64,000 nucleotides of DNA from an uncultured Campylobacterales bacterium (GTDB lineage Bacteria > Campylobacterota > Campylobacteria > Campylobacterales > Arcobacteraceae), in the NCBI GenBank assembly GCA_905479135.1, contig CAJQLJ010000043.1, forward strand, positions 3,433-67,432, read 5' to 3'. The notes below the pieces were generated by a model. That model was not told the origin of the DNA. It worked only from the letters and a program-made list of their open reading frames with translations, and did no database searches. Shown here piece by piece: positions 53,408 through 62,814 of the stretch. Position 1 is the first letter of the stretch. Each line of letters opens with the position of its first letter. A program made the position numbers and the translations under genes.

Positions 53408-54244
53408 TTATTTTACAACTTGATGTAGTTTTGAGCACTTAGAAAGAAAAGTGTCCATTCCACACATATCATTATAAATATCATCAAATGAATGGAAATG
53501 GGCATCATAAACATAAACAAAAATTTCATCATTTTTTTTCAAAAAGTTTTTCTTACCAAAATCTGCATATGCCGTCGCTCCTGCAGCAATTAAAATACCT
53601 TTTGCATCTTTTGCTGCAACTTCTAAAAATTGAGTCAACTCTTCTAAGGGTCCACAATCTTCTTGAGTATTTAGTTTTTCTATCATCCATGTCTTTAATT
53701 GCTCAAAGAAATAGCTATAAGACTTCACAGAGCTTGTTGTTCCATAGTCGTGAACAATGCCATCTCTTTTAATAAATGACGCTATATGATATCTATTTAA
53801 AATACCATTTTGTGTGAAATTATCTATTTTAATAATGTCTTGAGAGATACCTTTTGTATTAATTCCCCAGTTTTTTTTAGTACTAAGCTTATTTCCATCT
53901 TGAATTCTAATAGAACAGTCATTAAAAGCAGAAAAATATCTAGGAACAATATCAACTATCTTTTCATTTTTATAAACAAAATCACAAATTAAAGCAACTT
54001 CAGCTTCAACTTGTAAATTATCTTCTTCTCTTCCATGTGTTAATATAACTTCATCACATATGGGGTAGGTACTTAAAAATGAGTTATGATCTTTTATATA
54101 AAAAGGAAACATACCTTTAGGTGCATTCTTTTCTTCTGTTTTAATTACTGCAAATTCATTAGCTTCGCCAGCCTCACCTAAGTGGTTTGCAAAATTTCCA
54201 GCAACTGCAAAACCTAAATAATCTTTTAAATTTTCTAATAACAT
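53408..54244 (-). CDS. DUF5718-family protein with FAH-superfamily-like motifs
   Basis: G.AVAGNFA.HL..AGEA and APKG.FPFY N-terminus; EAEVAL, NDCSIR, KKNW. Confidence 0.75.
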   Translation of the reverse strand: MLLENLKDYLGFAVAGNFANHLGEAGEANEFAVIKTEEKNAPKGMFPFYIKDHNSFLSTYPICDEVILTHGREEDNLQVEAEVALICDFVYKNEKIVDIVPRYFSAFNDCSIRIQDGNKLSTKKNWGINTKGISQDIIKIDNFTQNGILNRYHIASFIKRDGIVHDYGTTSSVKSYSYFFEQLKTWMIEKLNTQEDCGPLEELTQFLEVAAKDAKGILIAAGATAYADFGKKNFLKKNDEIFVYVYDAHFHSFDDIYNDMCGMDTFLSKCSKLHQVVK

Positions 54245-54379: not shown

Positions 54380-54409
54380 TAATTATAAAGGCTAAAGCCT
54401 TTATAATTA
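54380..54409 (-). terminator. Terminator after fumarase
   Basis: TAATTATAAAGGCT-aa-AGCCTTTATAATTA inverted repeat overlapping the stop codon. Confidence 0.75.
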
Positions 54410-55900
54410 AATTGTTCTCCATTTAGCAGGTCCAGTAGTGTGTATTGAAACACCCTCTGTATCAACTGCAACAGTAACAGGCATATCAACTACATCAAAC
54501 TCATAAATAGCTTCCATTCCCATTTCTTCAAATGCAAGAACTTTTGCATCTTTAATTGATTGAGAAATTAAATATGCAGCTCCACCAGTAGCAATTAAGT
54601 ACATTGATTTATACTCTTTAATTAAATCAATAGTTGGTTGCTTTCTCTCAGCTTTACCAATCATACCCATGATTCCAATTTCCATCATATCTTTAGTGAA
54701 TTTATCCATTCTTGTTGATGTAGTAGGACCTGCTGGTCCAACTTTTTCATCCCTTACTGGATCAACTGGTCCAACATAATAAATAAATCTATCTTTTAAA
54801 TCAACACCATTTGGAAGTGGTTTATTTGCATTTTTGTACTCAACAATTTTTTTGTGAGCAGCATCTCTTGCAGTTAAAATTTTTCCAGTTAATAATAAAG
54901 TATCTCCTGATTTAAATTGAGATAAGTTCTCTTTTGTTAAATCTTCGATATTTACTTTTTTTATAGAATCTAATGGTAATTCAATATCTGGCCATATGCT
55001 TAAATCTGGTTTAGCAAATGTAGCTGCTCCCTCACCACCTTTTAATTTAAAGTGAATATGTCGTGTAGCTGCACAGTTAGGAATCATCGCAACTGGTAAT
55101 GATGCTGCATGACAAGGGTAATCTAAAATCTTAACATCTACTACAGTTGTTAATCCTCCAAGTCCTTGAGCTCCAATACCAATTTTATTTATATCTGTAT
55201 AAAGTCTTAATCTTAATTCTTCTAAAGCATTTTTTGGACCTCTTGCTTGTAGTTCATGAATATCAACATGACCCATTAAAGATTCTTTTGCTAAAAGCAT
55301 TGATTTCTCTGGATTTCCACCAATACCAATACCTAAAATACCAGGTGGACACCAACCAGCACCCATTTCTCTAACATTTGCCATAACCCAGTCATAAACT
55401 GAATCACTTGGATTTAACACTGCAAATTTAGATTTGTTTTCACTTCCACCACCTTTTGCAGCAACTGTAATATCTATTTCATCTGAATTATCAACAGTAA
55501 CATGAATAACAGCTGGAGTGTTATCTTTAGTATTTGTTCTTGCACCTGCTGGATCTGAAACAACTGAGTATCTTAATGTATTATCAGGATTAGTATAACC
55601 TTTTGCAACACCTTCATTTAATACATCTACAAGTTCTTTTGTAATTTCTAAATTTGCTTTTAAACCAACTCTTACAAAAATATTAACACTTCCTGTATCT
55701 TGACATAATGGTCTATGTCCTAAAGCACACATTTTTGAGTTAATTAAAATTTGCCCTAGTGCATTCTTTGCAGCTTCTGATTGTTCGTTTTCATAAGCTT
55801 CAACTATAGATTTTACAAAATCTTCTGGGTGAAAATATGAAATATACTGACATGCGTCAGCTATACTATCTATTATATCTTGTTCTTTTATTACGCTCAT
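54407..55900 (-). CDS. Class I (Fe-S) fumarate hydratase
   Basis: CQDTG, KGGGSENKS, GAGWCPP, NCAATRH, RDAAH, GPTTSTRM. ATG at 55900 with AAGGGA SD. Confidence 0.96.
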   Translation of the reverse strand: MSVIKEQDIIDSIADACQYISYFHPEDFVKSIVEAYENEQSEAAKNALGQILINSKMCALGHRPLCQDTGSVNIFVRVGLKANLEITKELVDVLNEGVAKGYTNPDNTLRYSVVSDPAGARTNTKDNTPAVIHVTVDNSDEIDITVAAKGGGSENKSKFAVLNPSDSVYDWVMANVREMGAGWCPPGILGIGIGGNPEKSMLLAKESLMGHVDIHELQARGPKNALEELRLRLYTDINKIGIGAQGLGGLTTVVDVKILDYPCHAASLPVAMIPNCAATRHIHFKLKGGEGAATFAKPDLSIWPDIELPLDSIKKVNIEDLTKENLSQFKSGDTLLLTGKILTARDAAHKKIVEYKNANKPLPNGVDLKDRFIYYVGPVDPVRDEKVGPAGPTTSTRMDKFTKDMMEIGIMGMIGKAERKQPTIDLIKEYKSMYLIATGGAAYLISQSIKDAKVLAFEEMGMEAIYEFDVVDMPVTVAVDTEGVSIHTTGPAKWRTI

Positions 55901-56015: not shown

Positions 56016-56645
56016 TTAATTTTTTATTATGATGTCTGCTTCTTTTGAATTTTCTATTATTTCTTTTGAATTTAAAATATCATTATTTTTTATCTTTTCA
56101 ATTGCTTCATTTTTTGTGTAACCATAATAAAGCCAACGTTCTAAAAGTCTTTTTTCTATTTCTTTAATTTCTATATCAAGCATAATGCTTAAATCCCAAT
56201 ATTCATCTAAACTAGACCAAATAGGTTTATTAAGAAGTAAATAATTTCCTTCAACTATCACAAAATCAAGATCTTTCTTAATCTCTAAAGCTTGTGCAAT
56301 TGACATGTCTAACTCTCTATTAAAAATTGGAACTATCACGTCTTCTTCTTTTGTTAAGCGCTTAATTAAAGATAAAAAACCATCTGCATCAAAAGTTTGA
56401 TAAGAACCTTTTCTAGAAAGTAATTCTTTATTTATAAGTATTTTATTATCTAAATGAAATCCATCCATGGGAATAACTTCACATTTATAATTCTTATTAA
56501 TTAAATATTTTGAAAGTTGATTTGAAAATGTAGATTTACCAGAAGCTGGAGTTCCAGTTATTGATATTAGAATTCTTTTTTTATTTTTTAGAAGTTTTTT
56601 TAGTTGATTAAAAATAAGATTGAAATTGTTTTCATTTTGATACAT
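56016..56645 (-). CDS. P-loop kinase, YggC/FrcK (uridine/pantothenate-kinase-like) family
   Basis: GTPASGKST, PMDGFH, RKG...TFD, VEGNYLLL...W. ATG at 56645 with AAGG SD. Confidence 0.88.
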   Translation of the reverse strand: MYQNENNFNLIFNQLKKLLKNKKRILISITGTPASGKSTFSNQLSKYLINKNYKCEVIPMDGFHLDNKILINKELLSRKGSYQTFDADGFLSLIKRLTKEEDVIVPIFNRELDMSIAQALEIKKDLDFVIVEGNYLLLNKPIWSSLDEYWDLSIMLDIEIKEIEKRLLERWLYYGYTKNEAIEKIKNNDILNSKEIIENSKEADIIIKN

Positions 56646-56667
56646 TTTAAACCTTATTTGTAAAATA

Positions 56668-56696
56668 GAAAAAACAAAAGGCAAAGCCCTTTGTTT
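56668..56696 (-). terminator. Intrinsic terminator ending the CitE/Mch operon
   Basis: Minus strand AAACAAAGGGC-ttt-GCCTTTTGTTT then TTTT; the G-U pair forms only on the minus strand. Confidence 0.8.
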
Positions 56697-56702
56697 AAAA
56701 GA

Positions 56703-57686
56703 TTAAGAGAAGAATCTGTCTTGAACTCTATCTTGTAATTTTGTTCCAGAGAATTTTGCTCTTTGAACTAGTTCCCAGAAATATCTGTAAGTTGCTCTAT
56801 CATGTAACTCACCATCATATTGTATTGGTCCCCATTCAGCATCTTGTGCAGCAATTAAAATATTTTGTGCAGCTTCTAATTCTGTAAAGTCTGGTTTCAT
56901 TGCATCAACAATTGCTGACACTTGTGTTGGATAAATTGACCACATTCTTAAGAATCCGAACTCATTTCTTGCTTTTTCAGCATCTTTGTAAGTTTGGTAT
57001 GGGTTTTTTAAATCAAGTGTAACATTGTGACAAGGAATAATGTGGTTTTGTAAAGCAGCTTGAACAACTTTAGCTTTAGCAGCAGCAATTAATCTGTGAT
57101 CAAATTGACCAGGAGATCTCATATTTGAAGCTGGAATTGCACCTTGGTAACCAGAAACAAAGTCCATTAAACCAAAGTCAAGAACTTGTACCCATGGTAA
57201 AGTAGCAGTTTTTTCAACATCCATTAAAGCACCATGTGTTTCAATTAGAACGTGAATTGGAATTTCTCTAGAAATACCAGCTTTCTTAGCTGCTTCTTGA
57301 ATATATTCAACTTGAGTTTTAGCATCTTCATAAGAAGTTGATTTAGGAATAGTAATATATGCTAATTTTTCACCAGCACCTGGTACTAAAATATCAATAT
57401 CTTGTCTCCAATCTGGATGATCAAAATCATGGATTCTTGTTCCTGCCATTGCATATTTATTAGCTTCAGAGTTAACAACTCTTACAATCATTTCTGCATG
57501 CTCAACTTCTTTACCTGTTTCAGCACCATCTTCACAATCACAAGTAATATCAAAAACAGGACCAAGCTTTTCTTGCATTTGGAAACCTTTTAAGATTAAC
57601 TTTTCGCTTCCAGCAAAGTGCTCACAAGATGGGATAATTGGTAAATTGTCTCCAGAACCAAATAGGGCTTCGTTAGGGTGTGTCAT
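56703..57686 (-). CDS. CitE/malyl-CoA lyase family enzyme
   Basis: DCEDG, TRIH, IPK, LIETH, FGLMDF, WSIYP.Q, LHD; metal and catalytic residues intact. Confidence 0.9.
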   Translation of the reverse strand: MTHPNEALFGSGDNLPIIPSCEHFAGSEKLILKGFQMQEKLGPVFDITCDCEDGAETGKEVEHAEMIVRVVNSEANKYAMAGTRIHDFDHPDWRQDIDILVPGAGEKLAYITIPKSTSYEDAKTQVEYIQEAAKKAGISREIPIHVLIETHGALMDVEKTATLPWVQVLDFGLMDFVSGYQGAIPASNMRSPGQFDHRLIAAAKAKVVQAALQNHIIPCHNVTLDLKNPYQTYKDAEKARNEFGFLRMWSIYPTQVSAIVDAMKPDFTELEAAQNILIAAQDAEWGPIQYDGELHDRATYRYFWELVQRAKFSGTKLQDRVQDRFFS

Positions 57687-57734
57687 ATTATTTCCTTTTG
57701 TTAAATTTAATTTATTAATTCTTTGTCTTCTTTT

Positions 57735-58793
57735 TTATTTAGCTGTTTTTCTTTTAGGAATTACAACTGTGTAATCTAAGTCAAGTACTACATTTTTTAA
57801 GTACTTTCCATCTTCACCTTTAGGATTAGATATTTCATCAGATTTTTGATTAGTAACAGCAACTGTTCTTAATCTTAATAATCCAATATCTTCTCTTTCA
57901 TGGTCAATTGTTTCAATAACTTCAGTATATGCATAAATAGTATCACCAGCATAAGTAGGATTAGCATGTGCTCCACTATTTATTGCATAAATCCATTGTG
58001 CATTTTGAAAACCATTAAATGATAATGCTCTTGCCATTGAAATAACAATACCACCATACATAAGTCTTTGACCCATAGGAGTACTTTTCATCATATGGTC
58101 ATTGAAGTGCACTTTTGCATTGTTTTGGTATAACTTTGTTGCTAGTGTATGATCACTATTATCAACTGTAATACCTTCTGGATGATTTAATCTCTCACCA
58201 GCTTCATAATCTTCAAAGAAGTATTTTCCCCCAGTTGAATCAGTGTTTACGCACTTGATTACTGGAAGGTTAATAAGGTCTGAAATAGCTGTAGTTTTAG
58301 CAAAAGTTGGAACTTCATTTATACCAGAAGTTGTACCTTTGTCTTTTTTATGAACCATAACCCATCTTTTGAAGTTTAGTACTTCTTTATTTTCTTGGTT
58401 TACACCAATAGAGTGTACATAAACAACTCCACTTTTTCCATTTGAGTTTTCTTTTAATCCAATTACAGAAGAAGTCATAGATACAGTATCTCCTACATAT
58501 GTAGGATTAGGAAATGAAATCTCTGCATAACCTAAGTTAGCAATTGCATTTAAAGATATATCTTGAACAGATTTACCAAATGTTAAGTGAAACATTAATG
58601 TATCATCAACTGGTCTTTTTTCATAACCCATTTCTTTTGCAACTACATCAGATGAGTTAAGTGCAAATCTAGAACCAGTAAAAGCTATGTATAAAGATAC
58701 ATCACCTTCGCTTATTGTTCTAGGTAGTGGGTGTACTATTTTTTGACCAATTGAAAAATCTTCGAAAAAGTTTCCAACGTTAATTTTAGACAA
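57735..58793 (-). CDS. Double-hotdog MaoC dehydratase, mesaconyl-C1-CoA hydratase (Mch)-like
   Basis: SK.N.GNFFEDF..GQ.I.H..PRT, FH..FGKSV.DISLNA.ANLGYA, N.A.VHF, YGG.VISMARALSFNG; TTG start. Confidence 0.85.
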   Translation of the reverse strand: MSKINVGNFFEDFSIGQKIVHPLPRTISEGDVSLYIAFTGSRFALNSSDVVAKEMGYEKRPVDDTLMFHLTFGKSVQDISLNAIANLGYAEISFPNPTYVGDTVSMTSSVIGLKENSNGKSGVVYVHSIGVNQENKEVLNFKRWVMVHKKDKGTTSGINEVPTFAKTTAISDLINLPVIKCVNTDSTGGKYFFEDYEAGERLNHPEGITVDNSDHTLATKLYQNNAKVHFNDHMMKSTPMGQRLMYGGIVISMARALSFNGFQNAQWIYAINSGAHANPTYAGDTIYAYTEVIETIDHEREDIGLLRLRTVAVTNQKSDEISNPKGEDGKYLKNVVLDLDYTVVIPKRKTAK

Positions 58794-58803
58794 TATAATC
58801 TCC

Positions 58804-61323
58804 TTATTTATTAAATAGGTTTTGACCTAATGATTTATATGTTTCATATAATGTAATCATTTTCTTAGCCCATTTAATTCTAGAACCATCAACTAACCTA
58901 TCGTTATGATAAATTACTTCTTTACCTTCTTTTTTAGCTTTTTCATATTTAGCAATCATTACTTCATAATCTTCAACTTCTGTTTGTTTAGGAGTAAAGA
59001 TATCATTGATATACTCAATTTGAATTGGATGAACTAGTGACTTACCATCGAAACCTAAGTTAAAGGCATCTTTAGTCGAATCTTCACAAGCAAACTCATC
59101 ATGAATATCAAAGTGAGGACCATCAATTACTGTTTGACCATACGCTTTTGCTGCAAGTGCAATTTGCGATAGATAGTTAAACATTGCTTTTGAACCTTTT
59201 TTAATATCAATTTGAAGTCTATTTGCAAGCTTATTAGAACCTACAACAACAACTTCAACTTTTGGACTTGCTGAACAGATTTCTTGTATATTTAAAACTG
59301 ATAATGGCGTTTCAATCATAATCATCAAAGATAAATTAGGATTAACTTCTTCAACTAGTTTAACTGCTTCATGTACTTGAGCAGCAGTTTCAATTTTTGA
59401 GAATAATAAACCATCAATTTCAATTTCAGTAGCTAATTTTAAATCTTTTGCAATATCTTCGCTTCCTAAGTTGTTAATTCTTAGAATTCTTTCAGAATCA
59501 CCAAATTTAGAACCACTTTCTTTATATACATCTTTAATAGTATCTCTAGCTAGACTTCTTTGCTCTGAAAGAATTGCTTCTAAGTCAAAAATAACTGAAT
59601 CAGCTAATACTGATTTTGCTTTTTCAACATTATTTTTATTGTAAGAAGGAATAAATAGCATAGATCTTCTAGCTTTGTATTCTTTAATTTCTTGACCACT
59701 TTCTTTTGATTGATAAATATCATGAAGATTTTTAACTAATTGTTTTCTTAAAACTTTACCATTTTTAGTTCTTGGATAATCACTCATTCCAAAAATAGTT
59801 TTAGGTGCCTTATATTTAGCTAGGTTTGCTTGTGAAAATGCTAAAACTTCTGCTTCTTGTTCTTCGCTTAATTCTTCATGTCCAATTACAGCAATTGCAA
59901 CAATTACTTTATCTTTTCCAATTTCTAAACCAAATGCAACACAATCTGCTACTAAATCATTAGTTTTTACAATTCTTTCAATTTCATGTGGTGATACTCT
60001 AAATCCAAATGTATTAATAATATCATCTTTTCTACCAATAAACCAGATATAACCATCTTCATCTTTTTTAGCGTAATCTCCTGTAAAGAAGTAACCGTTA
60101 TGCTTAGCTTTTCTAGTTTCTTCTTCTAATTGCCAATATTCTAAAAATAAACCTGGATCGTCTTCACCAATACAAATCATACCCTCAGTCCCATCTTCAA
60201 CTTCTTCAAGTGTATCTGGGTCTAATAATTTCACAGTATGTCCTGGTTGTACAAATCCTGCACTTCCTGGTCTAATTGGATTGTTTTTTGAATGTGAAAT
60301 ATAGTAAGAACACTCACTCATTCCAATTGCTTCGTAGATATCTTGTTTAAATCTATCTCTCCATAAACCAATCATTTCATCAGATAAATGTTCACCAGCA
60401 GACATACAATATCTCAAAGATGGACAATCTTCAGCTGAAAATTCTGTCTTTTGAATAATTTGTCTATAAATTGTAGGTACTCCAATAAAAATAGTACATT
60501 TATGTTTTTTAATTAATTCAATCCAAGTTCCAGCATCATTACCACCCTCATAAGCAATAACTGTATGTCCATTAAATAATGGATCCATAAGTGCTGATCC
60601 TAGTACATACGTCCAGTTAAATTTACCAGAATGCATAATTCTATCATTTTCTTTAAAGTCAAACCAGTACTCAGTAGCAGGAGTTCTTCCTACAAGTGAT
60701 CTGTGTGAATGAAGTACACCTTTTGGATAACCAGTAGTTCCTGATGTGTATACTAAATAAGCAGGTTCACCTGATTTTGATTTATAATGATTTGGAGTTT
60801 TATCTGCTGTATTTAATATTTCAGAAAATGAATAAACATTCATCCCTTTTGGAATATTTAAACCTTCAGTAGAATCAATTCCTGCAACAATAATAGTTTT
60901 TAAATTATCATGGTTTTCTAAGTAAGGTAGTAAATTATCATACATAGATGCAGATAATACTATTGCACTTGCTTGTGAATCTTCTGCTAAATATTTAACT
61001 TCTGATCCTGATAAAAGTGTTGAAGTTGGTACTGCAATAATACCAGCTTTTATACTTCCAAAAAATGAAATAGGGTAAGCTAGTGAGTTTTTTAAACATA
61101 CTAGTACTCTATCTCTTGGTTCTAATCCTAAACCTGTTAAGAAGTTACAAATTTGGTCAGATTTTTCTGCTAATTCTTTGTAAGAAATTTCATCAGTACC
61201 TAAATTATCATCTTCAATAATCATAGCGGTACTATTTTCTTTAGCTGTTCCTACATGTTTAGATGTACAAGCAACACCAATGTTTAAGTATTCTGGTACT
61301 TCAATTGTAATATTTGAACTCAT
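58804..61323 (-). CDS. Acyl-CoA synthetase fused to a C-terminal CitE-like domain
   Basis: ANL motifs YTSGTTGYPKG, YEAIGMSE, TGD, GRKDD, PRTKNGK. From ~59680 down: RRSMLFIP, DLE, RIN, MIET, GFDGK..VHP.QI. Confidence 0.9.
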   Translation of the reverse strand: MSSNITIEVPEYLNIGVACTSKHVGTAKENSTAMIIEDDNLGTDEISYKELAEKSDQICNFLTGLGLEPRDRVLVCLKNSLAYPISFFGSIKAGIIAVPTSTLLSGSEVKYLAEDSQASAIVLSASMYDNLLPYLENHDNLKTIIVAGIDSTEGLNIPKGMNVYSFSEILNTADKTPNHYKSKSGEPAYLVYTSGTTGYPKGVLHSHRSLVGRTPATEYWFDFKENDRIMHSGKFNWTYVLGSALMDPLFNGHTVIAYEGGNDAGTWIELIKKHKCTIFIGVPTIYRQIIQKTEFSAEDCPSLRYCMSAGEHLSDEMIGLWRDRFKQDIYEAIGMSECSYYISHSKNNPIRPGSAGFVQPGHTVKLLDPDTLEEVEDGTEGMICIGEDDPGLFLEYWQLEEETRKAKHNGYFFTGDYAKKDEDGYIWFIGRKDDIINTFGFRVSPHEIERIVKTNDLVADCVAFGLEIGKDKVIVAIAVIGHEELSEEQEAEVLAFSQANLAKYKAPKTIFGMSDYPRTKNGKVLRKQLVKNLHDIYQSKESGQEIKEYKARRSMLFIPSYNKNNVEKAKSVLADSVIFDLEAILSEQRSLARDTIKDVYKESGSKFGDSERILRINNLGSEDIAKDLKLATEIEIDGLLFSKIETAAQVHEAVKLVEEVNPNLSLMIMIETPLSVLNIQEICSASPKVEVVVVGSNKLANRLQIDIKKGSKAMFNYLSQIALAAKAYGQTVIDGPHFDIHDEFACEDSTKDAFNLGFDGKSLVHPIQIEYINDIFTPKQTEVEDYEVMIAKYEKAKKEGKEVIYHNDRLVDGSRIKWAKKMITLYETYKSLGQNLFNK

Positions 61324-61338
61324 TGTTATAACTCCTTA

Positions 61339-62469
61339 TTAAATTTGACCGTAAGGCCAGTTTTCTTTAAATGTATGTATTGGCATTCTATTAAGAACTG
61401 ATAATGCAAATATTTCATCTTCTTTTTCTAAACTTCTAAGTGCATAAGCTCTTAAAATATTTTGTAATGATTTACCAAACATTGGTGGATCTAACATTTC
61501 ACCTTTGTATCTAATTGCTCCACTTAATAAAGCATCTGCTTTAATAGCTTCTTTTAAAATTTCAACATCTTTAGCAATTTCTTTTGGACTTGGCGTAAAT
61601 GCAACTTTACATACATTAATGTGGTTTGGAGTAATAACTTGTTTTCCAGTTAATCCCATTGCATATTCTCTTTGTGCATGAGCATATACATGTCTAGATG
61701 CTTCATCTCCATGTAAATCTAACCATCTTCTAATATCTTTCTTTTCAACACAGTGATCTGGTAATGAATGAGGTGTTAATAGAACTTCAACTCCACCAAT
61801 AACACCTTTACCTTTAACTCTTGCTTCCATTGTTAAAATATTAAAGAATGTTTCAAGTTCATCAATCCAACCTTGAGGTGTGATTTTATAAGCCATTGCT
61901 TTAGAAAAATCGTGGATACCAAATACAACGTGTTTAACAGTTGAATGTTCCATTAGTCTATCAGCAATTTGAAGAGATTTAGGATGTTCTATAATTGGTT
62001 GAATTGTTAAATTACTTCCAATTGAAACTAACCAAGAAGATAAATCTCTAATTTCAGCAGAACCATAAACTTCTCCAGCTTTTGCTAAAACAATTGAATC
62101 TACATATTTGTGGATTTGCTTTAACATTTTTAAGTCTTCTTCATACTCATCTGTTCTAAATGGATTTATTCTCACAGCTATTTGGAAGTTTCTTTCAGGG
62201 AACTTTGGAAGTTCTTGAATTAATAATTCTCTAGACATAGCTTTTTGTCTACAACCATCTTCTAAATCAAATAATACAGTATGTGCTTTTGTTTTGTAAG
62301 CATGTTTTTGTAATCTTAATTTAGCTTGTTCCATACTTTCATATGTTCCATCAAGTGGATTGAATTTAATTGGTGGGTAATAAATTTGAATACCAGGCCA
62401 GTATCCACCAAGAACGGGTGTTAAATCATCGTTTGCTGTTAATTTAGATAAATCTATTGCAGAAGTCAT
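61339..62469 (-). CDS. CitE/malyl-CoA lyase family enzyme (divergent)
   Basis: FDLEDG, VRIN, LAK, IIEHP, FGIHDF, GLTGKQVI.P, MLDPP. Confidence 0.88.
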   Translation of the reverse strand: MTSAIDLSKLTANDDLTPVLGGYWPGIQIYYPPIKFNPLDGTYESMEQAKLRLQKHAYKTKAHTVLFDLEDGCRQKAMSRELLIQELPKFPERNFQIAVRINPFRTDEYEEDLKMLKQIHKYVDSIVLAKAGEVYGSAEIRDLSSWLVSIGSNLTIQPIIEHPKSLQIADRLMEHSTVKHVVFGIHDFSKAMAYKITPQGWIDELETFFNILTMEARVKGKGVIGGVEVLLTPHSLPDHCVEKKDIRRWLDLHGDEASRHVYAHAQREYAMGLTGKQVITPNHINVCKVAFTPSPKEIAKDVEILKEAIKADALLSGAIRYKGEMLDPPMFGKSLQNILRAYALRSLEKEDEIFALSVLNRMPIHTFKENWPYGQI

Positions 62470-62734
62470 TTTTTATCTACCTTTCTTTTGTTATTTTGTG
62501 CTTTTTAATCACTGTTTGTAATTCTATTAGTTTATAGAATAAAACTGATGTGAAAGTTATACATTATTTAAAATGAATTGTTTTTATGTAAAAAAAAATA
62601 GTGTTTTAACTTAAGCTTAGATTCAAAAAACTTCAAAAAAAGCCTTAACTTAGGGAAAGTAAACTTAAAGAAGTGGTAAAATCAAGTCAAAATGATATGA
62701 AAAGCCATGAAAAATTAAGGATAAAAAATAATAT

Positions 62735-62768
62735 AAATTTGCAAATTTGCAAATTCTTTTGCAAATTT
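62735..62768. repeat. Three copies of the palindromic octamer TTTGCAAA
   Basis: Copies at 62738-62745, 62746-62753 and 62758-62765, in the intergenic region upstream of the CitE operon. Confidence 0.8.
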
Positions 62769-62814
62769 ACACATATTTGATAAATTTCGAAGAATTTGAA
62801 AAAATTTGAACTAC

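What the first reader, a model, noticed from the sequence alone, without database searches (positions are those of the whole stretch)
56703..62469. Four-gene CitE/Mch/CoA-ligase operon: candidate citramalate/mesaconate-type carbon assimilation route in a Campylobacterota genome
Seen: a tight operon (gaps of about 10-50 nt) with its own ~345-nt upstream region and a terminator at ~56680. It encodes CitE-like lyase A, an acyl-CoA ligase-CitE fusion, an Mch-like hydratase and CitE-like lyase B. A class I fumarase lies ~0.8 kb further downstream on the same strand. Established: Mch plus malyl-CoA/beta-methylmalyl-CoA lyase interconvert mesaconyl-C1-CoA and glyoxylate + propionyl-CoA in the ethylmalonyl-CoA pathway, 3-hydroxypropionate bicycle and methylaspartate cycle. 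CitE-family members also include (S)-citramalyl-CoA lyases and malyl-CoA thioesterases. Some class I fumarases hydrate mesaconate to (S)-citramalate. No ccr/ecm/mcd, mct/meh or glutamate mutase genes are in this window. Inference: the set could link acetyl-CoA + pyruvate, citramalate, mesaconate, mesaconyl-CoA and methylmalyl-CoA to glyoxylate + propionyl-CoA, using an ATP-dependent ligase in place of a CoA transferase. That resembles the citramalate cycle proposed for acetate assimilation, or a glyoxylate/C5-dicarboxylate scavenging route. I know of no description of this in Arcobacteraceae. Caveat: the fumarase is transcriptionally separate and may be only the housekeeping enzyme.
Basis: partly seen in the sequence, partly recalled or inferred. 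Interest (0 to 1): 0.82.

Follow-up and report, generated by a model that had tools for sequence, protein, structure and literature searches.

The report
Known, untested mesaconyl-CoA operon of Arcobacteraceae
This four-gene operon is real and widespread and was described by sequence in Arcobacter butzleri in 2007; it likely splits a five-carbon acid into glyoxylate and propionyl-CoA and, with the methylcitrate cycle, would give a route for assimilating acetyl-CoA without isocitrate lyase, for which I found no assay in print.

Summary
The operon is as described (lyase B, ligase-CitE fusion, Mch, lyase A). It is not undescribed: Miller et al. 2007 (PMC2147049) report the same cluster, ab1917-ab1921, and a citramalate-cycle idea in A. 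butzleri. This scan also found it earlier on other DNA.
Tested here: the gene order holds in 69 of 69 fully covered loci. Lyase B occurs in 79 of 120 Arcobacteraceae; all 79 carry PrpB and 77 carry this fumarase type (1 of 41 non-carriers does). The module lies beside prpBC in four loci from three phyla. Isocitrate lyase was not found in any of 15 carriers searched. The fused third CitE domain lacks two of the family's Mg-site aspartates, so it is likely not a lyase.
Best reading (0.5): acetyl-CoA + pyruvate to citramalate, mesaconate, mesaconyl-CoA and methylmalyl-CoA, then glyoxylate + propionyl-CoA, closed by the methylcitrate cycle.
Against: A. butzleri mostly does not grow on acetate, this genome has pyruvate synthase, a control gene (aceE) nests the same way, and no lyase substrate can be assigned.

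The parts
61339..62469 (-). Lyase B: divergent CitE-superfamily enzyme (376 aa) with all catalytic residues; inferred citramalate-forming step
   Evidence: PF03328. D68/E70/D71/R100/E161/D187/D327 in 74 of 74 orthologues. AlphaFold TIM barrel with lid, 15-22% identity to solved members. Directly upstream of the ligase in fused and split forms.
59704..61323 (-). AMP-forming acyl-CoA ligase domain (residues 1-540 of the fusion); inferred mesaconate-CoA ligase
   Evidence: PF00501/PF13193. Below the cut-off of every NCBIfam ligase model shown (best 25 of 111). Nearest solved relative is benzoate-CoA ligase, E 6e-56. P-loop and catalytic Lys motifs conserved in 70 orthologues.
58804..59673 (-). 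Third CitE domain (residues 551-839 of the fusion), catalytically degenerate; likely not a lyase
   Evidence: ED motif reads E582-A583 (Asp in 2 of 70). The Mg-binding Asp position is K698 (K 49, N 13, T 5 of 70). Lid D812 is kept in 70 of 70. The ED motif is also broken in 4 of 4 split module copies aligned. Intact CitE fold predicted.
57735..58793 (-). Mesaconyl-C1-CoA hydratase (Mch) orthologue, 352 aa
   Evidence: PF19315 83 bits, cut-off 26.5. PDB 4E3E E 6e-110 and 8HGN 'beta-methylmalyl-CoA dehydratase' E 5e-102 over the full length.
56703..57686 (-). Lyase A: CitE-like enzyme of the 3QQW/3R4I group (function unknown) with all catalytic residues; inferred beta-methylmalyl-CoA lyase
   Evidence: 3QQW E 1e-136 and 3R4I E 4e-101, against malyl-CoA lyases at E 9e-13 or worse. 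D50/E52/D53/R84/E149/D175/D296 in 69 of 69. Lies between Mch and prpB in L101 and L102.
56672..56696 (-). Terminator-like hairpin after lyase A
   Evidence: 11-pair stem followed by a T run
54407..55900 (-). Single-chain class I fumarase; inferred fumarase/mesaconase
   Evidence: PF05681 + PF05683. Next gene after lyase A in 30 of 64 loci. This type is in 77 of 79 carriers and 1 of 41 non-carriers. The FumC-like gene of G000 is AspA.
62470..62814 (.). Upstream intergenic region; in 29 of 77 loci a divergent IclR-type regulator precedes lyase B instead of bioD
   Evidence: The one copy scanned best matches BhcR, below cut-off. One copy used as query gave no hit in G000.

Best explanation
The operon likely turns citramalate/mesaconate into glyoxylate and propionyl-CoA and, joined to the methylcitrate cycle, would assimilate acetyl-CoA without isocitrate lyase. 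Predicted steps: (1) lyase B condenses acetyl-CoA + pyruvate and hydrolyses the ester to (S)-citramalate; (2) the class I fumarase gives mesaconate; (3) the AMP-forming ligase makes mesaconyl-C1-CoA; (4) Mch gives beta-methylmalyl-CoA; (5) lyase A cleaves it to glyoxylate + propionyl-CoA; (6) PrpC/AcnD/PrpF/PrpB turn propionyl-CoA + oxaloacetate into pyruvate + succinate; (7) lyase A or B condenses glyoxylate + acetyl-CoA to malate. Net: 2 acetyl-CoA + oxaloacetate + ATP give succinate + malate, the glyoxylate-shunt result at the cost of ATP to AMP. The third CitE domain is likely non-catalytic (structural or regulatory). Shown here: genes, families, residues, synteny, co-occurrence. Step 4 follows from orthology and step 6 from known families. 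Steps 1-3, 5, 7, the direction and which lyase does what are inferred. Confidence is about 0.7 for steps 3-6 alone and 0.5 for the full cycle.
For: Full-length Mch orthology. Among 120 Arcobacteraceae: lyase B and PrpB both 79, lyase B only 0, PrpB only 5, neither 36. Physical linkage to prp genes: L075 (Thermodesulfovibrionales; the operon is followed on the same strand by a PrpE-like ligase, a fumarase alpha subunit, a prpB-prpC fusion and prpD), L068 (Sulfurospirillaceae; prpBC and a PrpE-like gene within 10 kb), and L101/L102 (handles G664, G529; CitE3-Mch-lyase A-prpB-prpC-prpD in one run, with malic enzyme, lyase B, ligase and PEP synthase genes divergent). G000 has prpB-prpC-acnD-prpF, acetate kinase and malic enzyme. 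No isocitrate lyase in G000 or 14 other carriers searched; 14 of these 15 have a PrpB-type hit. No malate synthase in 9 of 10 carriers searched. No family III CoA transferase or methylmalonyl-CoA mutase, and no Ccr over cut-off, in 5 of 5 genomes each. The fumarase co-distributes. Class I but not class II fumarases hydrate mesaconate (PMC4682846, passages). A gene list of the same shape (prpCBD, cyl1, maoC, cyl2, cyl3, prpE, fum) defines the unexplained Methylophilaceae cluster (PMC4109929, table passage). Arcobacter sp. CAB assimilates about 37% of consumed acetate (PMC3656443, passages; its genome was not checked here).
Against: A. butzleri RM4018 has the cluster but does not grow on acetate or propionate (PMC2147049, 'data not shown'). 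A. butzleri strains generally do not use acetate, ED-1 excepted (PMC9927503, passage). G000 and 2 of 2 genus relatives have pyruvate:ferredoxin oxidoreductase, an alternative assimilation route. The control gene aceE nests the same way (70 of 120, all 70 among carriers), so co-occurrence partly reflects lineage, and kin are not independent. Isocitrate lyase is in only 33 of 121 genomes of the class sample (a floor), so its absence from 10 Pseudomonadota carriers, several of them incomplete, is weak. G435 has no PrpB-type hit and G319 has malate synthase G. Two carriers, G217 and G258 (drafts), lack the fumarase. Neither lyase reaches the cut-off of a characterised family, and only two intact lyases must cover three C-C reactions and two hydrolyses. 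The citramalate cycle itself 'still needs to be proven' (PMC4682846).
Confidence: 0.5

Rival explanations
1. Catabolic scavenging of external C5-dicarboxylates (mesaconate, citramalate, methylmalate): same steps 2-7, but no citramalate synthesis and no role in growth on acetate.
For: Explains the Mch, ligase, fumarase and PrpB dependence equally well. Fits the lack of acetate growth in A. butzleri.
Against: No transporter is conserved next to the operon in 77 loci. Citramalate/mesaconate use needs only a CoA transferase or ligase plus one citramalyl-CoA lyase (PMC4682846 figure legend). Near-universal retention in carrier genera (e.g. 17 of 17, 16 of 16) suggests a core function.
Confidence: 0.2
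2. Reverse direction, as Miller et al. 2007 proposed: propionyl-CoA + glyoxylate to methylmalyl-CoA, mesaconyl-CoA, mesaconate and citramalate, ending in pyruvate + acetyl-CoA; the ligase would activate citramalate.
For: In print. The IclR-type regulator beside 29 loci best resembles the BhcR model, below cut-off; that BhcR senses glyoxylate is recalled. The lyase and hydratase steps are reversible.
Against: It would compete with the methylcitrate cycle for propionyl-CoA, so neither the 79 of 79 dependence on PrpB nor the same-strand linkage to prpBCD is expected. No glyoxylate source was identified (no isocitrate lyase; glycolate oxidase not searched).
Confidence: 0.15
3. Methylaspartate-type feed: mesaconate comes from glutamate through the B12 glutamate mutase (glmSEL) found in G000.
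For: GlmE is in G000 (split over the ends of contigs C54 and C46) and in 78 of 120 Arcobacteraceae.
Against: Its pattern differs from the operon's: genus g2 4 of 17 against 17 of 17; g52 16 of 17 against 2 of 17. Methylaspartate ammonia-lyase was found in 0 of 121, but no control genome rang. In 2 of 2 loci read, glmSEL sits with its own AMP ligase and no lyase.
Confidence: 0.05
4. The module acts on other acyl-CoA esters or repairs side products (e.g. malyl-CoA, itaconyl-CoA), or runs as an oxidative acetyl-CoA cycle with malic enzyme and pyruvate dehydrogenase in cells with an incomplete TCA cycle.
For: The lyases are only 15-25% identical to solved, characterised members. A. butzleri lacks SucCD/Sdh genes and Methylophilaceae lack 2-oxoglutarate dehydrogenase. 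Malic enzyme is adjacent in L101/L102, and aceE lies upstream in 12 loci.
Against: Close Mch orthology points to mesaconyl-C1-CoA. The Ich and RipC/Ccl models are not met.
Confidence: 0.1

Closest known systems
A. butzleri RM4018 cluster ab1917-ab1921 (Miller et al. 2007, PMC2147049; section 9 read whole)
   Same: CitE, ligase-CitE fusion (CaiC 50-550, CitE 550-825), enoyl-CoA hydratase, CitE, class I fumarase; linked there to the citramalate and methylcitrate cycles. Partial A. butzleri proteins match the fused domain at 82-83% (P0136, P0141).
   Different: A kinase-like gene is inserted before the fumarase here. The paper ran the route towards pyruvate + acetyl-CoA, treated all three CitE domains as possible lyases, and gives no assays.
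Methylophilaceae 'methylcitric acid cycle' gene cluster (PMC4109929, PMC3728764; passages)
   Same: [quoted passage not shown]
   Different: Ligase and third CitE are separate genes and the prp genes are in the same cluster. I did not compare sequences with named Methylophilaceae genes.
Citramalate cycle proposed for Rhodospirillum rubrum (review PMC8307300; passages)
   Same: Acetyl-CoA + pyruvate to citramalate, mesaconate, mesaconyl-CoA, methylmalyl-CoA, then glyoxylate + propionyl-CoA.
   Different: There propionyl-CoA returns through succinyl-CoA. Here methylmalonyl-CoA mutase was not found and the methylcitrate cycle is the likely return. The cycle is unproven.
Mch/Mcl segment of the ethylmalonyl-CoA pathway, 3-hydroxypropionate bicycle and methylaspartate cycle
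   Same: A true Mch orthologue beside CitE-family C-C lyases with the conserved Arg/Glu/Asp set (PMC3832036, section 13 read).
   Different: The lyases are not close to Mcl, HaloMCL or Ccl by sequence; an AMP ligase stands in place of a CoA transferase; ccr, mcm, family III CoA transferase and mal were not found.

Membership tests
A. butzleri ab1917-ab1921 cluster | Order CitE / ligase-CitE fusion / hydratase / CitE / class I fumarase | tested here: met
   one inserted kinase-like ORF before the fumarase
A. butzleri ab1917-ab1921 cluster | Sequence orthology to A. butzleri proteins | tested here: met
   Partial A. butzleri fusion proteins 82-83% identical; all 17 genomes of genus g2 carry lyase B. 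RM4018 itself was not fetched.
Mesaconyl-C1-CoA hydratase (Mch) | Full-length double-hotdog homology to characterised Mch | tested here: met
   PF19315 over cut-off; 8HGN E 5e-102, 4E3E E 6e-110 (that 4E3E is the Chloroflexus Mch is recalled). The haloarchaeal equivalog is not met.
Mesaconyl-C1-CoA hydratase (Mch) | Hydrates mesaconyl-C1-CoA | not testable with these tools
   Needs an assay
CitE superfamily C-C lyase (lyases A and B) | Arg, Mg-binding Glu and Asp, ED motif, lid Asp | tested here: met
   Invariant in 69 of 69 and 74 of 74 orthologues, against the residues defined in PMC3832036
CitE superfamily C-C lyase (fused third domain) | Mg-binding Asp and ED motif, 'absolutely conserved' in the family | tested here: not met
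   A583 and K698; Asp in 2 and at most 3 of 70; ED broken in the split copies too
Malyl-CoA/beta-methylmalyl-CoA lyase (Mcl1, MMC lyase, HaloMCL) | Close homology to a characterised clade | tested here: not met
   Best E 9e-13 (lyase A) and 3e-7 (lyase B) to 4L9Y; NF041626 40 and 20 bits against cut-off 500. No tree with the reference enzymes was built.
Citrate lyase beta subunit; itaconate pathway Ccl/RipC and Ich/RipB | NCBIfam equivalog scores | tested here: not met
   TIGR01588 54 and 26 bits against 443; NF038242 54 and 39 against 375; NF038241 107 against 340
Ethylmalonyl-CoA pathway | Crotonyl-CoA carboxylase/reductase and B12 methylmalonyl/ethylmalonyl-CoA mutases | tested here: not met
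   0 of 5 genomes over cut-off for Ccr; 0 of 5 for PF01642. G000 is 88% complete; the sets included complete relatives.
3-hydroxypropionate bicycle (partial) | Family III CoA transferases Mct/Smt | tested here: not met
   PF02515 in 0 of 5 genomes; Meh not searched
Methylaspartate cycle | Glutamate mutase | tested here: met
   GlmE in G000 and 78 of 120 relatives, but with a different distribution
Methylaspartate cycle | Methylaspartate ammonia-lyase | tested here: inconclusive
   0 of 121, but no positive control rang
Citramalate cycle | Citramalate synthase, mesaconase and mesaconate-CoA ligase activities and flux from acetate | not testable with these tools
   Candidate genes present; activities unassayed
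Methylophilaceae MCC cluster | Sequence orthology to cyl1-3, maoC, 'prpE' | not tested
   Only the published gene list was seen; split modules next to prpBCD were seen in G664 and G529

The most novel reading that the evidence does not exclude
The module is the genetic basis of the long-proposed citramalate cycle, in a B12-free form closed by the methylcitrate cycle. It would be a further acetyl-CoA assimilation pathway, spread over Campylobacterota, Pseudomonadota and Nitrospirota, that explains the Methylophilaceae 'MCC' cluster, with new citramalate-synthase and mesaconate-CoA-ligase families and a conserved CitE pseudo-enzyme partner.
Probability: 0.4. Interest if true: 0.85.

Novelty: new member of a known kind. 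Interest (0 to 1): 0.45.

Why it matters
Arcobacteraceae are common marine and wastewater heterotrophs. Some grow on acetate, yet the carriers searched have no glyoxylate, ethylmalonyl-CoA or complete methylaspartate route. If the reading holds, five enzymes from one operon would prove a pathway proposed in 1997 and still called unproven, and would explain the Methylophilaceae cluster whose substrate is stated to be unknown. The cluster and half the idea are in print, so the value lies in testability rather than discovery.

Tried and rejected
(1) Hetero-oligomer of lyase A + lyase B + third CitE domain: the complex prediction gave no answer and is not used either way. (2) AlphaFold models and Foldseek of lyase B and the third domain gave a generic CitE fold, with no substrate assignment. 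(3) ICL-family hits in G571 and G404 in long open frames were checked and are prpB next to prpC. (4) The FumC-like gene of G000 is AspA. (5) Promoter scan not above chance. (6) RNA: contigs of 4 of 20 listed runs (2 marine studies) were laid and cover all four genes. X1/X2 are flat across intergenic DNA and may be DNA; X3/X4 have little cover upstream of lyase B. Contigs show no strand or level, so this is presence only. (7) A. butzleri transcriptome supplement (PMC9927503, part 5 of 6 plus term searches): prpB, prpC and one 'citrate lyase beta-like' gene rise in one column. I did not establish that this gene belongs to the operon or which strain the column is; weak hint only. (8) Literature: ten searches found no biochemical study of the cluster; the library lacks most subscription papers, and bioRxiv supplements were closed. 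(9) No tree against Mcl1/Mcl2/Ccl was built, because the reference sequences were not held. (10) Glycolate oxidase, Meh and propionyl-CoA carboxylase were not searched. (11) G549 was not scored in the class sample, so 6 of 400 is a floor.
Full report
Observation. The genome (G000, 1.52 Mb, 88% complete) belongs to the Arcobacteraceae; lyase B is 99% identical to that of Poseidonibacter ostreae. A kinase-like ORF lies between lyase A and the fumarase. Among 77 related loci it occurs only in L001, so it is a recent insertion.

The proteins. Mch is a full-length orthologue of solved mesaconyl-CoA hydratases (8HGN E 5e-102, 4E3E E 6e-110). Lyase A belongs with the uncharacterised 3QQW/3R4I proteins (E 1e-136). 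Lyase B is a small family of its own: 22 representatives at E up to 1e-30 among 1.84 billion, many of them fragments, and weak PDB hits only. Both keep every residue that PMC3832036 (passages and section 13 read) calls conserved, in 69 of 69 and 74 of 74 orthologues. The fused domain does not: the ED motif reads EA and the Mg-binding Asp is Lys, Asn or Thr, while the lid Asp is invariant (70 orthologues). In 4 of 4 split copies aligned the ED motif is also broken, and the other two positions vary. Its nearest stand-alone relatives with an intact ED motif and 30-34% identity (P0168, P0171) have a lid Glu, the mark that paper gives for the malyl-CoA thioesterase group. I infer a conserved pseudo-enzyme. 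The ligase domain is intact but below the cut-off of every family model shown.

Distribution. The order is kept in 69 of 69 fully covered loci from Arcobacteraceae, Sulfurospirillaceae, Gammaproteobacteria and Thermodesulfovibrionales; 8 of 77 are cut by contig ends. Lyase B is in 79 of 120 Arcobacteraceae, 0 of 191 other Campylobacterota sampled (Sulfurospirillaceae carriers appear) and at least 6 of 400 in a Gammaproteobacteria class sample. In five of those six, ligase and third CitE are separate genes.

Partners. All 79 carriers have PrpB; 5 genomes have PrpB only and 36 have neither. The single-chain class I fumarase is in 77 of 79 carriers and 1 of 41 non-carriers; 37 of the other 40 have a distant (about 40%) type. 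Five of five further carriers have a class I fumarase. The module is physically linked to prp genes in L075, L068, L101 and L102. In L101/L102 it falls into two blocks, CitE3-Mch-lyase A-prpB-prpC-prpD and malic enzyme-lyase B-ligase-ppsR-ppsA, which is the basis for my tentative assignment of the lyases. Control: aceE is in 70 of 120, all among carriers, so co-occurrence alone does not single out prp; the physical links carry that claim.

Alternatives searched. Isocitrate lyase was not found in 15 carriers. The class base rate is only 33 of 121 (this tally includes two unpublished genomes, G370 and G448), so this is weak. Malate synthase was found in 1 of 10. Family III CoA transferase and methylmalonyl-CoA mutase were found in 0 of 5 each, and Ccr in 0 of 5 over cut-off. 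The three operon domains are the only PF03328 hits in 5 of 5 genomes. G000 does have glutamate mutase, but its distribution differs, and methylaspartate ammonia-lyase was not found, without a working control. G000 also has pyruvate:ferredoxin oxidoreductase, and aceE was not found in its assembly.

Mechanism. An AMP-forming ligase, a true Mch, a mesaconate-capable fumarase class (PMC4682846, passages) and dependence on a propionyl-CoA sink point to flux from mesaconate to glyoxylate + propionyl-CoA (about 0.7). Adding citramalate and malate formation by the two intact lyases closes a cycle with the glyoxylate-shunt net equation (0.5). All activities except by orthology are inferred. Growth data cut both ways: A. 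butzleri mostly does not use acetate, while Arcobacter sp. CAB assimilates it (genome not checked).

Prior knowledge. Miller et al. 2007 (PMC2147049, section 9 read whole) describe the same cluster as resembling the citramalate cycle, run towards pyruvate + acetyl-CoA, without assays. The Methylophilaceae MCC cluster has a matching gene list and an unknown role (PMC4109929, PMC3728764, passages). Ten searches (listed under Tried and rejected) found no biochemical study in the held library. Six earlier notes of this scan reached similar readings on other genomes. I had reached the methylcitrate link before consulting them, and took the Methylophilaceae lead from them.

Verdict. A real, conserved, already described but untested operon; a new member of a known kind; interest 0.45. 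The additions here are the degenerate third CitE domain, the co-distribution of the fumarase type, and a quantified link to the methylcitrate cycle with a control.

Noticed in passing
G000 C54:6816-7595 and C46:5859-9179; L111:8166-12703; L112:5543-10106: Conserved glmS-glmE-glmL (B12 glutamate mutase) plus an AMP-forming ligase. GlmE is in 78 of 120 Arcobacteraceae, with no methylaspartate ammonia-lyase found; purpose unexplained, possibly biosynthetic use of methylaspartate.
   Followed up: partly
window 56016-56684 (-): PRK09270-like nucleoside/pantothenate kinase inserted between lyase A and the fumarase; seen only here and in L001.
   Followed up: partly
window 53408-54244 (-): DUF5718 gene follows the operon or fumarase in 53 of 77 loci; directly after lyase A in 24 of 64.
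   Followed up: no
L075:12084-14090: PrpB-PrpC in one 668-aa ORF in a Thermodesulfovibrionales MAG (a natural fusion or an assembly effect).
   Followed up: no
L036-L040, L043, L051, L054, L060, L063-L065: In 12 loci the operon and its divergent IclR gene lie next to aceE, with genes that look like lipoate and E2/E3 genes (recognised by eye, not scanned).
   Followed up: partly
L023, L067: Loci labelled Sulfurovum and Paceibacteria are 92-94% identical to the Arcobacteraceae lyase B with the same neighbours; probably misbinned contigs.
   Followed up: no
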